Assembly (NCBI GenBank): GCA_964220215.1
Contig: CAXPTH010000003.1
Span: 1-64,000, forward strand
DNA: 64,000 nucleotides
Direction: 5' to 3'
DNA from: Alteromonas sp.
GTDB lineage: Bacteria > Margulisbacteria > Marinamargulisbacteria > UBA6595
The position numbers are program-made. Each line of letters opens with the position of its first letter. Positions within the stretch are counted from its first letter, which is position 1. Shown one piece after another: positions 30,001-33,000 of this stretch.

Positions 30001-33000
30001 GTTGGATAAGTTAAATATTTCGGTTAGGTTACTTGTGTCCCGGAAAGCATACATATTCGCATCAATAGCTATATATATAACTGGCATCTTTATGGTAACC
30101 CCTGGACGATATTCATGAACAACGGTATGCCCGTATCCGGCGACAACCCATAGTTGAGGGCTTAGCCATTGCCGGCTAATTTCAATGCCTTGTTCATACC
30201 CAAACCGTTTGCTTGGTTTTAGGCTTACTGTGTAATTTGTATTTTCATTTCCATTAATATAGTATTCCTCAACCGATTTAGCTGGCGGTTGACTGCTTTG
30301 GTATGGCCCGGGTCCCAGGGGTAGACCACCATATAGTCGTACTTGCCACATGCCCCAGTTGGGTTTTCGAGTCTGTTTATTGTGTGTCGTGTTTACTTCA
30401 TCCGTAGCGTTTTCGTGAATGTTGTAATGCAGCTCGGCAAATCCATTGGTTGTGTATAAACCGATGAATACAGCGATGATAAATTTAGTGTGCAAGTTTA
30501 GTTTTTTCATTTTTCCCTTCTAATTCCCCTTCTATTTTTCCCTTCTAATTCTCCTTCTAATATTTTTGATTTTATGTGTTTCTCTGTTTTATTTTTAAAA
30601 ACACAACTTAAATTATAATAAAATTCGATACAAATGTCAACAATTTATTTTAAAAATGGATTAATTTGTGTCAAAAATAGAGGGGCGGTTTGGGTGTTGA
30701 TTAGAGATAGTTGTCTGGGTGGGGGATGGGTAGATTTAGATGGGGGTATCGATCCGTGAGTGATCGGGCAAAATGGTAGTCAAGTTCTTGAATAGACTGG
30801 GGCAGTGGGTATAAGTGCCCATAGTGCATGGCGGTGTAGTGGGGGCCTTCTCCAAAAAACCGTTGCCACATGTCCCAGCGTTCCATACAGAAGTAAATGA
30901 GGGTTTCTGGCTTCAGGTATCGGTAAAGATCGGCCAAAATATGGGCATACATCTGGTTTCGAATGGGTTTTGGGTATCGCAATTTGCCATCATCCCCCAG
31001 TACCATTTCAGCGGCAGTGAGTGAAGACGTTGGAAAATTGCTTTCCATTTTCTTTTTCATTTCGGGTTTGAATCGCAAGGAGCCAATGGATAGCCAGGCT
31101 AATCGATCGGGTTGAATGTGTGCAAACAATTGATCCACTAAATCGGTGTATTCGGCTTCCCAGTTATCATGAATAATCATGGGGTCAATGTGCACGCCCA
31201 CCAGGTAGCCGGCATCGTAAACCGCTTTCATGGCGGCCAATCGATCCGCTAGTCGCGCGGTTTTATGTTCTTCGGCATTCACTACGGCATGGGTGTTTAG
31301 CGACCAAGACACAACGGTTTTTTGCCCGTGATCTAGGGTTAAAATGGGGGCGACTACATCGGATTTTGTTTTTAGCTCCAGTAAGGCATTGGGGATATCT
31401 CGAAATCGCTCAATGAGCGCCGCCGCTTGACCGGTTTGAACCTCCAATGCGAGGCTGTCGCCCAGTTCCCAGGTGCCAATTCGAAAGAGCCGGTTGGGTT
31501 CTCGATCCACTTTTTCGTGGACATTGGCCATGATGGCGTCAATGTCTTGAATGACTTTGGTGTTGCCGTCGTTGAGGTAGTCTTGTAAAAAACAGTAGCT
31601 GCAATCAAAGGGGCAATTGCTTACGGTTTTAATAACTTGAACATTGCAGCATACATATTTGTTGCTAATGGTGGCACAGGTGTCCATGACATCGCCTTTT
31701 TTGGGGATATATTGGATCTTCGCTTTGCCGTCGCGATAGTATCGGCTCATAGCAATGCCATCATACTGGATACTACGGGTTCAGCCTTTTGAAGTTGTTG
31801 GCTTAAGTGGTTGAGTTCGTGCGGGTCTCTGAGTGTGCAATGCAGGGCCAATTGGCGATTTTCCAAGCTATGGTCCCACTGAATTTGAATGCCGTCAGGT
31901 GCGGTTTGAGATAGTTGGGTTAGCTGGGCATTGACGGTATGCACGGTGGGTTGGACTTGGTTGCTTAGATGCTGAATTAATGCGGAAGCTCCCTGGGTCT
32001 TGAGAATGTGCTGCGTGTCTGGCTCAGCAAGGATGGCGGATGCGGGTGTATTGTGACGTTTAGATAAGTCATGCAATTGATCGGCAATGCGAAGCCAATT
32101 GCTGCTGGATACGTGTACAGACGCAACGACTGTTTCTAGAGTATGCAAGAGCTCTTGGGTATAGGAAGCCAGTCGCAAGCACACGGCAAAACTTAGGGCG
32201 TGTTGGTGGCAGCGGGTTTGAATTGTTTGGGGTAGCTGAGCGATTTTTTTACTGTGAACGAGCAGTGCGTTGTAATGCTGAAGGCCCAAGGGGGCGCAGT
32301 GGTCGGCCAATGAGGCCGTCGTGGATTTCCAGTTTAATAAAAACAAGACTTTTTGCATCACTGAACGGTTTAGTTTTTCTGCGTGGGCCTCGAGCATGAG
32401 CGTGTATTGCTCAAATTCAGACGCGGGTATTAGGCTGGCCAGGATATGCGTGCTGGGGCAGTGTGTTAAGCGTTGGTAGCCGTCTAGTAGCGTATAGCCA
32501 TCTGCGGTAGGGGTTACCCATATGGGCGATAGGATTCCGGTTTGATGCATTGACTGAACCAACGATTCGCGTGGTGGCGTGGCTAGATGTTTGGGGAAGC
32601 TGGATTCGTAGTCTGTGATGTTAATGTCTGCAATCGCAATAGTGGTTTGGCGTATTCCCATAATTGTCTAATCAGTGTACCATTTTGATTAAAGACTTTA
32701 AATTGATTAATTAACTTGATTGAATTTTAGATATAGTCTTAATCTTAATTGCATAAAATCAAGAGGAGCTTTTATGACAAACATATCCAGATGTAATGCC
32801 CGTCAATACCATGCATTATCGACACAAGGTAGTATTCCGCCTGCTCTGGCGGTAGTGATAGAAGAAGAAAAAAATATGCTTTGCTAAAGGCTTTGGAATA
32901 CGTTCAATCTAGCGGAAAATACTTGGCTCATCTCCCACAGTTTGCAGATAATAAAGACGTTGTTATGGCTGCGATTAATCAGAATCCGGTAGCAATTCAT

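What a model noticed while it worked through the whole genome (the two positions that open the first line are those of the whole stretch)
30701..32661. ParB-type CTPase-fold DNA clamp protein coupled to a spore-photoproduct-lyase-like radical SAM enzyme
A radical SAM gene of the spore photoproduct lyase family (g00057, 349 aa) overlaps by 4 nt with an unannotated gene (g00058, 304 aa) that folds like ParB/Noc/KorB; the pair stays side by side across the class although g00058 has diverged to 20-25% identity, and a complex model joins the two through g00058's invariant residues. I read the pair as a new DNA-repair module of a non-sporulating, sunlit-water bacterium, in which a ParB-like clamp loads on DNA and carries a radical SAM lyase to UV lesions. 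New would be a partner and a targeting mechanism for the many orphan SPL homologues outside spore formers, and a repair role for the ParB fold.
Evidence so far: g00057 has Pfam SPL, is 23% identical to Swiss-Prot SPL and has a CxxxCxxC box at C46-C53. g00058 has no Pfam or NCBIfam family and 165 representative relatives of ~320 aa. In alignment A3 (40 rows) G61, R64 (the DGFKR box), P238, W262, D263 and E267 are invariant. AlphaFold2 on A3 gives pLDDT 92.7 and pTM 0.84. Foldseek against the PDB finds ParB-CDP/CTPgammaS 7bnk, 7bnr and 6sdk (E 1.5e-6 to 1e-5), Noc 7nfu, KorB 8qa9, and sulfiredoxin for the N-domain. Synteny: of 13 loci from other class genomes around strong A3 matches, 11 hold an SPL homologue (45-60% identical) directly beside the ParB-like gene; 2 (G025, G006) show none within the 1.5 kb fetched. 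Outside the phylum, the one full-leng [...]
(Added by a program. Inside this text positions count along the whole contig: contig position 1 is position 1 of the stretch shown here. "Call 12" and the like, gene names such as g00115 and contig names such as C1 are that model's own, and its searches are not shown. The text may have been shortened before it was handed on; [...] marks where a part breaks off. The agent that wrote the report below was given it as the finding of a first reader that could run no searches.)

Follow-up and report, generated by a model that had tools for sequence, protein, structure and literature searches.

The report
Radical enzyme with ParB-derived helper subunit
A relative of the spore DNA-repair enzyme and its ParB-derived partner protein are two members of an unstudied four-gene set, with an adenine-releasing enzyme, a reductase and a sugar transferase, that is kept or lost together in many bacteria and most likely builds a sugar-bearing modification rather than repairing UV damage.

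Summary
The pair is real: an SPL-fold radical SAM gene (30701-31750) is coupled to a ParB-fold gene (31747-32661). The two occur in the same 27 of 55 class genomes and are adjacent across several phyla, including groundwater and vent lineages. A complex model passes (0.79 vs 0.00), but through the partner's C-terminal half. The CTPase part looks dispensable: the GxxR box is missing in 14 of 27 class partners and Box III in 118 of 118. The 'clamp carrying a UV lyase' reading is not supported. The enzyme has lost SPL's thymine-binding Arg and Glu and the lesion-flipping hairpin tip. It travels with an MTAN-like nucleosidase-GT2 fusion (41567-42979) and an aldo-keto reductase (outside the window). 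A sister species lacks all four genes at three separate sites. A partner-free sister clade uses an SDR instead, and fusions join the parts. Best reading: a modification pathway with hopanoid-side-chain logic (adenosylate, remove adenine, reduce, glycosylate), with the ParB-derived protein as activator; the substrate may be a nucleic-acid base. I found no paper on it. This scan noted the module before on other DNA.

The parts
30701..31750 (-). SPL-fold radical SAM enzyme (g00057, 349 aa), 'clade A'; lacks most of SPL's N-terminal subdomain in this genus
   Evidence: Pfam SPL 90.3 bits; TIGR04070 112.5 bits vs cut-off 400; Foldseek TM 0.70 to SP lyase; dN/dS 0.046 against G045
31592..31615 (-). 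CxxxCxxC [4Fe-4S] motif, C46-C53
   Evidence: invariant in 89 of 89 clade A and 27 of 27 clade B sequences
31747..32661 (-). ParB-derived partner (g00058, 304 aa): degenerate ParB/Srx N-domain, helical middle, docking helices and ParB-like C-terminal domain
   Evidence: Profile hits Noc/Spo0J at E 1e-20 over positions 3-204; model and fold searches; dN/dS 0.136
32470..32481 (-). Box II remnant G61-Y-Q-R64
   Evidence: GxxR in 97 of 118 partners
31750..32184 (-). Partner residues 160-304: the half that docks on the radical SAM enzyme in the model (residues 197-204, 236-243, 265-269)
   Evidence: complex prediction 0.79 vs best control 0.00; most conserved part, E267 1.00, D263 0.99, P238 0.97; dN/dS 0.063 for residues 169-304
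41567..42979 (-). MTAN-like nucleosidase fused to a GT2 glycosyltransferase (470 aa as the longest ORF, true start probably about 25 codons later); third member of the set, 9 kb away here. The fourth, an aldo-keto reductase, lies outside the window at G000:C3:117211-118068 (+)
   Evidence: Pfam PNP_UDP_1 and Glycos_transf_2; homologues directly upstream of the pair in 40 of 83 loci; reductase:

Best explanation
g00057 and g00058 form a two-subunit radical SAM enzyme that does the first step of a four-activity modification pathway. The ParB-derived protein is an activator or substrate-presenting subunit. It binds the enzyme's beta-hairpin through its C-terminal half and does not need CTP. Inferred chemistry: the 5'-deoxyadenosyl radical adds to an acceptor, the MTAN-like domain removes adenine to leave a ribosyl adduct, the aldo-keto reductase (an SDR in the sister clade) reduces it to a ribitol-type chain, and the GT2 adds a sugar. 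This is the logic of hopanoid side-chain synthesis, on another acceptor. A phosphorylated pyrimidine in DNA, RNA or a nucleotide is the most likely acceptor. Shown: gene linkage, co-occurrence, co-loss, fusions, residue changes. Modelled: the complex. Inferred only: every reaction, the order of steps and the substrate. My odds: about 0.8 for 'multi-enzyme modification pathway, not lesion repair', and about 0.55 for this chemistry given that.
For: Pair: same 27 of 55 class genomes; partner upstream in 60 of 69 GTDB loci with enough flank; present elsewhere in 15 of 15 genomes where it was not seen beside the enzyme; complex score 0.79, best control 0.00, mark reached by 116 of 157 solved and 2 of 215 mismatched pairs, runs agree in at least 92% of contacts, partner pLDDT at least 88. 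Four-gene set: nucleosidase-GT2 beside the pair in 40 of 83 loci and reductase in 30 of 83. In the class, nucleosidase-GT2 is in 21 of 27 enzyme-positive and 3 of 28 enzyme-negative genomes, and the reductase clade (E<1e-70) in 13 of 27 and 0 of 28. Same-genus G044 lacks all four; the nucleosidase-GT2 and reductase genes are missing between intact syntenic neighbours, and the pair's 8.1-kb region is 0.54 kb. Sister clade B: nucleosidase beside the enzyme in 23 of 26 loci, SDR in 16 of 26, same GT2 subfamily in 16 of 26, no partner in 26 of 26 genomes. Fusions: nucleosidase-enzyme in L164, GT2-docking segment-enzyme in P0403. Clades A and B share a rebuilt pocket (E125, K/R127, S/A148, H/R187, D189, S221, C288) that SplB lacks. 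Precedents: HpnH/HpnG/HpnI (PMC4263297, passages); ParB-like activators of phage thymine dioxygenases that tolerate NTP-site mutations (PMC13229309).
Against: No substrate or product is known, and no activity was measured. The nucleosidase could simply clear the by-product 5'-deoxyadenosine: it is the only PNP_UDP_1 match in G000, and three genomes (G007 55%, G010 92%, G049 94% complete) have the nucleosidase-GT2 without the enzyme. The reductase clade was not found in 14 of 27 enzyme-positive class genomes. No GT2 lies within 6 kb of the L164 fusion. Clade B lacks C25, K256 and the partner, which weakens a DNA substrate. Partner and enzyme are near-neutral (median pI 6.8 and 7.2) against 8.1-9.3 for three SplB proteins and 9.4 for the genome's own ParB. 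The window's GT2 lacks the 'VVDDGSTD' segment and about 30 residues. No close homologue was found in phages, plasmids or viral contigs, where DNA hypermodification is usually found.
Confidence: 0.45

Rival explanations
1. Same four-gene pathway, different chemistry: the radical enzyme abstracts H from a sugar or nucleotide-sugar (dehydration or deoxygenation to a ketone), the AKR or SDR reduces the ketone, the GT2 transfers the tailored sugar to a glycan, lipid or small molecule, and the nucleosidase only removes inhibitory 5'-deoxyadenosine. The AprD4/AprD3 parallel is recalled, not from a call.
For: All the linkage evidence above fits. The shared pocket is polar and charged (E125, K/R127, H/R187, D189). 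The nucleosidase's closest solved relatives are plain MTA/SAH nucleosidases and it is the only one found in G000. The GT2's closest solved relatives are polysaccharide synthases.
Against: It does not explain why a ParB-derived protein with a helical DNA-binding-type middle is the fixed partner in clade A, nor why K154/S157/K159 are 90% or more conserved there. A housekeeping nucleosidase would not need to be fused once to the enzyme and once to the GT2, nor to be lost with them in G044.
Confidence: 0.27
2. One reading: a DNA-repair unit in which a ParB-type CTP clamp slides on DNA and brings an SPL-like lyase to UV or other thymine lesions.
For: SPL fold, TM 0.70. Clade A keeps an H-donor cysteine at the clostridial position (C25 aligns with C76 of the 4RH0 mutant and with a clostridial SplB Cys), the phosphate-binding R226 and K256, and Y286 (Y339 equivalent). 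GxxR is kept in 97 of 118 partners. The organism is from coastal and salt-marsh water. PMC2628731 (passages) proposed a repair role for an SPL-like gene in vent bacteria, without testing it.
Against: Arg193 and Glu268 (thymine O4 binding) are Ser, Cys140 is Glu, Tyr98 is Phe, and the Arg304/Tyr305 hairpin tip is shortened to Asp-Asp. Box III is absent in 118 of 118, and GxxR in 14 of 27 class partners. The N-domain is under relaxed selection (dN/dS 0.35 vs 0.06). The genome has three photolyase-family genes and no SASP match. No repair gene is among the large neighbour clusters. Repair does not need a GT2 and a reductase, yet they are lost together with the pair.
Confidence: 0.12
3. The pair repairs or removes a non-UV adduct, and the nucleosidase, reductase and GT2 detoxify its products (5'-deoxyadenosine, 5-deoxyribose).
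For: It keeps the DNA-type features of clade A and explains nucleosidase plus reductase as by-product disposal.
Against: SPL-type lyases regenerate SAM (recalled), and glycosylating a waste product is not a known disposal route (recalled). The GT2 is fused to the enzyme itself in P0403.
Confidence: 0.1

Closest known systems
Spore photoproduct lyase SplB (TIGR04070; PDB 4FHC-4FHG, 4RH0; PMC3467042)
   Same: Fold (TM 0.70, 22-23% identity), cluster motif, SAM-binding D98, K129, S150, Y52, phosphate-binding R226 and K256, Y286, and a Cys at the clostridial H-donor position.
   Different: Thymine-binding Arg and Glu replaced by Ser, Cys140 by Glu, Tyr98 by Phe, hairpin tip shortened and acidic; extra conserved C34, C35, C288; a dedicated partner; non-sporulating hosts; separate branch from SplB (quick tree).
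ParB-dependent phage thymine dioxygenases (5mYOX + ParB activator; PMC13229309)
   Same: A ParB-fold protein serves as cognate activator of a modifying enzyme; NTP-site mutations are tolerated; ParB-dependent and ParB-independent subclasses exist side by side, the independent ones often near glycosyltransferases.
   Different: Fe/2OG dioxygenase rather than radical SAM; phage rather than chromosome; that ParB lacks the DNA-binding domain and needs its N-domain, whereas here the helical middle is kept and the N-domain is lost in some lineages.
Hopanoid side-chain pathway HpnH (radical SAM), HpnG (nucleosidase), HpnI (GT2)
   Same: The same set of activities: radical adenosylation, adenine removal, then glycosylation, with an aldehyde intermediate (PMC4263297 passages). 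The window's nucleosidase hits TIGR03468 HpnG weakly, E 1e-4.
   Different: The radical enzyme is SPL-fold, not HpnH. No squalene-hopene cyclase match in G000 (82% complete), so the acceptor is probably not a hopanoid.
Chromosomal ParB / Noc / KorB CTPase clamps
   Same: N-domain and helical domain are homologous (E 1e-20; Foldseek E 1e-6); Box I-like GxLxP and Box II GxxR in most members.
   Different: No Box III, no Glu in Box II, no parA neighbour, family-specific conserved C-half; the genome has a separate canonical parAB.

Membership tests
Spore photoproduct lyase (TIGR04070 equivalog) | Score above the curated cut-off (400 bits) | tested here: not met
   112.5 bits; TIGR03886 67.9 vs 437.55
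Spore photoproduct lyase (TIGR04070 equivalog) | CxxxCxxC cluster motif and SAM-binding Asp143, Lys174, Ser195, Tyr96 | tested here: met
   C46/C50/C53, D98, K129, S150 (S or T), Y52
Spore photoproduct lyase (TIGR04070 equivalog) | H-donor cysteine at Cys140 (bacilli) or at the Ser76 position (clostridia) | tested here: met
   Cys140 position is Glu95, but C25 (88 of 89 clade A) aligns with the clostridial Cys; sequence alignment only, across an insertion
Spore photoproduct lyase (TIGR04070 equivalog) | Dihydrothymine-binding Arg193, Glu268, Tyr339 | tested here: not met
   Arg193 is S148; Glu268 aligns with S221 by counting back from Arg273 (the aligners place a 2-3 residue gap here); Tyr339 is kept as Y286
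Spore photoproduct lyase (TIGR04070 equivalog) | Lesion-flipping hairpin tip Arg304/Tyr305 | tested here: not met
   Hairpin shorter, tip G252-D253-D254 with D254 in 89 of 89
Spore photoproduct lyase (TIGR04070 equivalog) | Host makes SASP-coated spores in which SP forms | tested here: inconclusive
   No SASP match in G000, which is 82% complete
Spore photoproduct lyase (TIGR04070 equivalog) | Cleaves SP in vitro | not testable with these tools
   needs the enzyme
ParB CTPase clamp (ParB/Noc/KorB) | ParB/Srx N-domain plus helical DNA-binding domain | tested here: met
ParB CTPase clamp (ParB/Noc/KorB) | Box II GxxR | tested here: met
   G61-Y-Q-R64 in the window; 97 of 118 partners, but missing in 14 of 27 class partners
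ParB CTPase clamp (ParB/Noc/KorB) | Box III (ENxxR; motif wording recalled, seen in the aligned Noc and Spo0J chains) | tested here: not met
   0 of 118; orphan ParBs often lack it yet some still bind NTP (10.1101/2025.10.10.680097, passages)
ParB CTPase clamp (ParB/Noc/KorB) | Encoded with parA | tested here: not met
   No parA among recurrent neighbours; canonical parAB is on contig C7
ParB CTPase clamp (ParB/Noc/KorB) | CTP binding, clamp closure, sliding | not testable with these tools
   needs biochemistry
Hopanoid side-chain pathway (HpnH/HpnG/HpnI) | Squalene-hopene cyclase in the genome | tested here: inconclusive
   No PF13243 match in G000, 82% complete
Hopanoid side-chain pathway (HpnH/HpnG/HpnI) | Orthologues above the HpnG or HpnH cut-offs | tested here: not met
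   TIGR03468 22 bits vs 187.1; no HpnH model among the hits of g00057
Known anti-phage systems (PADLOC-DB 2.0.0) | Match to a defence protein model | tested here: not met
   0 families for all four proteins at E<=0.001

The most novel reading that the evidence does not exclude
A widespread, undescribed bacterial nucleic-acid hypermodification: a repair-enzyme scaffold, turned into a writer, adds SAM's adenosyl group to a pyrimidine in chromosomal DNA or RNA under control of a ParB-derived activator; adenine is then cut off and the ribose reduced and glycosylated, giving a SAM-derived glycosyl-ribityl base.
Probability: 0.25. Interest if true: 0.92.

Novelty: new variant of a known kind. Interest (0 to 1): 0.68.

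Why it matters
Many proteins filed as 'spore photoproduct lyase' or 'DNA photolyase' in non-sporulating bacteria (1802 clusters at E<=1e-20, not all of this clade) are probably misannotated. This finding gives two of their clades a defined gene set, a likely protein partner, candidate catalytic cysteines and a four-gene experiment. If right, it adds new radical SAM chemistry and a second case, after the phage thymine dioxygenases, of a ParB fold used as an enzyme activator. If the acceptor is DNA or RNA, it is a new base modification in chromosomes of several phyla.

Tried and rejected
Direct genome scan with the partner alignment failed for lack of a conserved stretch; I used the enzyme alignment instead. 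Homology of the clade B nucleosidase's C-terminal tail to the partner's docking helices: the register looks similar, but hhalign gave probability 0.8-3.6% and HMM scores did not exceed reversed sequences; inconclusive. The docking-like segment in fusion P0405 beat 283 reported shuffles with one profile but not with the second (5 of 284 as high); only P0403 is used. A weak upstream extension of the Pfam SPL match across a stop codon is not a split N-terminus: the upstream frame is closed 10 codons before the ATG. Phage, plasmid and viral collections gave only distant matches of 22-31% identity. RNA contigs from four metatranscriptomes cover parts of both genes and of the nucleosidase-GT2 gene, but none bridges the junction and DNA carry-over is not excluded; not used as support. 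ESM Atlas named no family for the partner's C-half or the clade B tail. The tree is a quick one; the careful search did not finish, about half of the clade A rows were left out, and the root is unknown. Promoter scan found nothing above shuffles upstream of the pair. One genome (G315) was not scored. Literature searches found no description of the pair or the four-gene set; the library lacks most subscription papers. The supplements of PMC12704722 held as text did not contain 'photoproduct', 'photolyase' or 'radical'; figures and bioRxiv supplements were not seen and could bear on this.
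Full report
Observation. The two ORFs are as described: a 349-aa radical SAM protein (30701-31750, minus) whose ATG overlaps the TGA of a 304-aa upstream gene (31747-32661). 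The first has Pfam SPL at 90.3 bits but reaches only 112.5 of the 400 bits needed for the SplB equivalog; its model matches SP lyase at TM 0.70. The second is a ParB homologue over its first 200 residues: a profile of 133 relatives hits Noc and Spo0J at E 1e-20, and the model (pLDDT 94.6) matches ParB, Noc, KorB and sulfiredoxin. Each is single-copy, and the genome has a separate canonical parAB. Both are under purifying selection against the same-genus genome G045 (dN/dS 0.046 and 0.136; der control 0.045). Record titles of related loci place the class among the Marinamargulisbacteria.

The pair is a unit. The enzyme is in 27 of 55 class genomes, and partner matches that reach the C-terminus are in the same 27 (compared by hand). 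The partner is directly upstream on the same strand in 25 of 28 class loci, in 60 of 69 GTDB loci and 38 of 42 metagenome loci with at least 1.4 kb upstream (these sets overlap and include kin). In 15 of 15 genomes where it was not seen beside the enzyme, some because of contig ends, it lies elsewhere (the G067 match is a divergent one). Hosts include Nitrospirota, Desulfobacterota, Nitrospinota and Gammaproteobacteria records, many from groundwater, subsurface and vent samples by their titles. A complex model of the enzyme with partner residues 160-304 scored 0.79 against a best control of 0.00; the mark was reached by 116 of 157 solved and 2 of 215 mismatched pairs, runs agreed in at least 92% of contacts and partner pLDDT was at least 88. 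The interface joins the enzyme's hairpin region (245-253, 260-263) to partner residues 197-204, 236-243 and 265-269. This supports binding; it does not show it. Only the C-half was folded, so the model says nothing on N-domain contacts.

The clamp part is not the conserved function. Box III is absent in 118 of 118 partners, and the Box II position held by Glu in ParB is mostly Phe or Arg. GxxR is present in 97 of 118 overall but missing in 14 of 27 class partners, and the partners of G004 and G026 lack the N-domain. In this genus the N-domain evolves faster (dN/dS 0.35 on 19 changes) than the C-half (0.06 on 25 changes). The best conserved residues are E267, D263, P238, L266 and K154/S157/K159. 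Orphan ParBs without Box III can still bind NTPs (10.1101/2025.10.10.680097, passages), so binding in the members that keep GxxR is not excluded.

The enzyme is not a plain SP lyase. Using the residue roles in PMC3467042 (passages and first half of the Results) and alignments to 4RH0 and two SplB genes: cluster and SAM ligands are kept; R226, K256 and Y286 match the phosphate- and base-contacting Arg273, Lys309 and Tyr339; C25 matches the clostridial H-donor cysteine. But Arg193 and Glu268 are Ser, Cys140 is Glu, Tyr98 is Phe, and the Arg304/Tyr305 hairpin tip is replaced by a shorter Asp-Asp turn. Three more cysteines (C34, C35, C288) are conserved in 88-89 of 89. The genome has three photolyase-family genes and no SASP match.

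Two more genes belong to it. Clustering neighbours of 83 loci gave two large families besides the pair: an MTAN-like nucleosidase fused to a GT2, upstream in 40 loci, and an aldo-keto reductase, downstream in 30. The window's genome has both, at 41567-42979 and at C3:117211-118068. The nucleosidase keeps invariant D-M-E and K-x-x-x-D motifs, the GT2 its DxD and ED motifs, the reductase D55/Y60/K85/H127 (that these are the catalytic motifs is recalled). In the class the nucleosidase-GT2 is in 21 of 27 enzyme-positive genomes (counting contig-end fragments and one GT-only gene; a weaker match in G028 not counted) and 3 of 28 negative ones. The reductase clade is in 13 of 27 and 0 of 28 at E<1e-70. 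Outside the class, 15 of 16 clade A genomes have the nucleosidase-GT2 or its GT part. The cleanest test is G044, same genus and 89% complete. It has none of the four. The nucleosidase-GT2 gene is missing between two neighbours that stay adjacent on one contig, and so is the reductase. The 8.1-kb region with the pair is 0.54 kb there, though the second anchor is only 141 bp. Loss at three separate sites points to one pathway.

A sister clade does without the partner. Of 300 genomes sampled from the class of G064, 39 have a match over the SPL cut-off. Of the 30 loci fetched, 4 are clade A and 26 are another clade, B, which has a nucleosidase beside the enzyme in 23, an SDR (recognised by eye from its glycine-rich start) in 16 and the same GT2 subfamily in 16, within 1.5-kb flanks. 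None of these 26 genomes has the partner. PMC2628731 (passages) shows an SPL-like gene beside an SDR in vent bacteria. Clades A and B share pocket residues that SplB lacks: E125, K/R127, S/A148, H/R187, D189, S221 and C288 (23 of 27 in B). A quick tree separates A, B and SplB with its short relatives. Fusions tie the parts together: nucleosidase-enzyme followed by an SDR in L164, and GT2-linker-enzyme in P0403, whose linker matches the partner's docking helices (16.5 bits, above all 294 reported shuffles; 12.1 vs 10.9 with a second profile).

Mechanism. Radical SAM enzyme, adenine-releasing nucleosidase, an interchangeable carbonyl reductase and a GT2 are the activities of hopanoid side-chain synthesis, where HpnH adds adenosine, HpnG removes adenine and an aldehyde intermediate is processed further (PMC4263297, passages). 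No hopene cyclase was found here, so I infer the same chemistry on another acceptor. The kept phosphate- and base-binding residues and the ParB-derived partner suggest a pyrimidine in a nucleic acid or nucleotide. The partner's role has a tested precedent: phage thymine dioxygenases fall into ParB-dependent and ParB-independent subclasses, and the activator tolerates NTP-site mutations (PMC13229309; parts 1-2 of 7 and passages). Against this reading: the nucleosidase may only clear 5'-deoxyadenosine, the proteins are not basic, clade B lacks C25 and K256, and the set was not found in phages or plasmids. I give it 0.45, radical sugar tailoring 0.27, the clamp-plus-UV-repair model 0.12 and adduct removal with detoxification 0.10.

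Novelty and verdict. Nine literature searches found no description of the pair or the set. PMC8989533 (passages) names only SP lyase and a phage isomerase as radical SAM enzymes acting on DNA as of 2021; PMC9477430 (passages) only lists the SPL subgroup. Earlier notes of this scan describe the same module in other genomes; they are unchecked and not counted as support. Verdict: a real, undescribed variant system built from known families, function untested; interest 0.68.

Noticed in passing
window 25465-29544 (-): A 1359-aa ORF with a long Thr-rich repeat tract and predicted hydrophobic segments near its end, in a low-GC stretch; absent at the syntenic site in G044.
   Followed up: no
window 29575-30510 (-): A 311-aa protein without a Pfam match, with paralogues on contigs C16 and C23 of the same genome (45-49% identity to a G044 homologue); a perfect 12/12 sigma-70 consensus lies upstream at 30640-30612.
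   Followed up: partly
window 32776-33487 (+): DUF4116-repeat gene that appears broken into pieces here; the matching place differs in L202 and L203, so the region upstream of the pair varies between strains.
   Followed up: partly
window 33467-33781 (-): A 104-aa ORF that looks like an internally shortened gamma-carbonic-anhydrase-like protein (resemblance recalled, not searched).
   Followed up: no
window 41567-42979 (-): The window's GT2 lacks about 30 residues including the usual VVDDGSTD segment that the other 32 aligned members keep; still under purifying selection (dN/dS 0.23).
   Followed up: partly
G007, G010, G049: Nucleosidase-GT2 present without the enzyme or partner, two of them in genomes over 90% complete; unexplained.
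   Followed up: no
L162:5923-7959 and L163 (viral contigs): A distant SPL-like gene with a very long branch sits beside a second radical-SAM-looking gene in two large viral contigs.
   Followed up: no
P0405: Fusion of two radical SAM domains, the second of clade A type, with a possible docking segment between them.
   Followed up: partly
L197:168-2289: Two tandem SPL-family genes next to a repB partition gene on a Roseomonas plasmid; they group with SplB's short relatives, not with clade A.
   Followed up: no
window 44647-48691: Two FIST-domain-looking proteins, an adenylate-cyclase-like protein and a metallo-beta-lactamase-fold protein cluster together (names recalled from sequence, not searched).
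   Followed up: no
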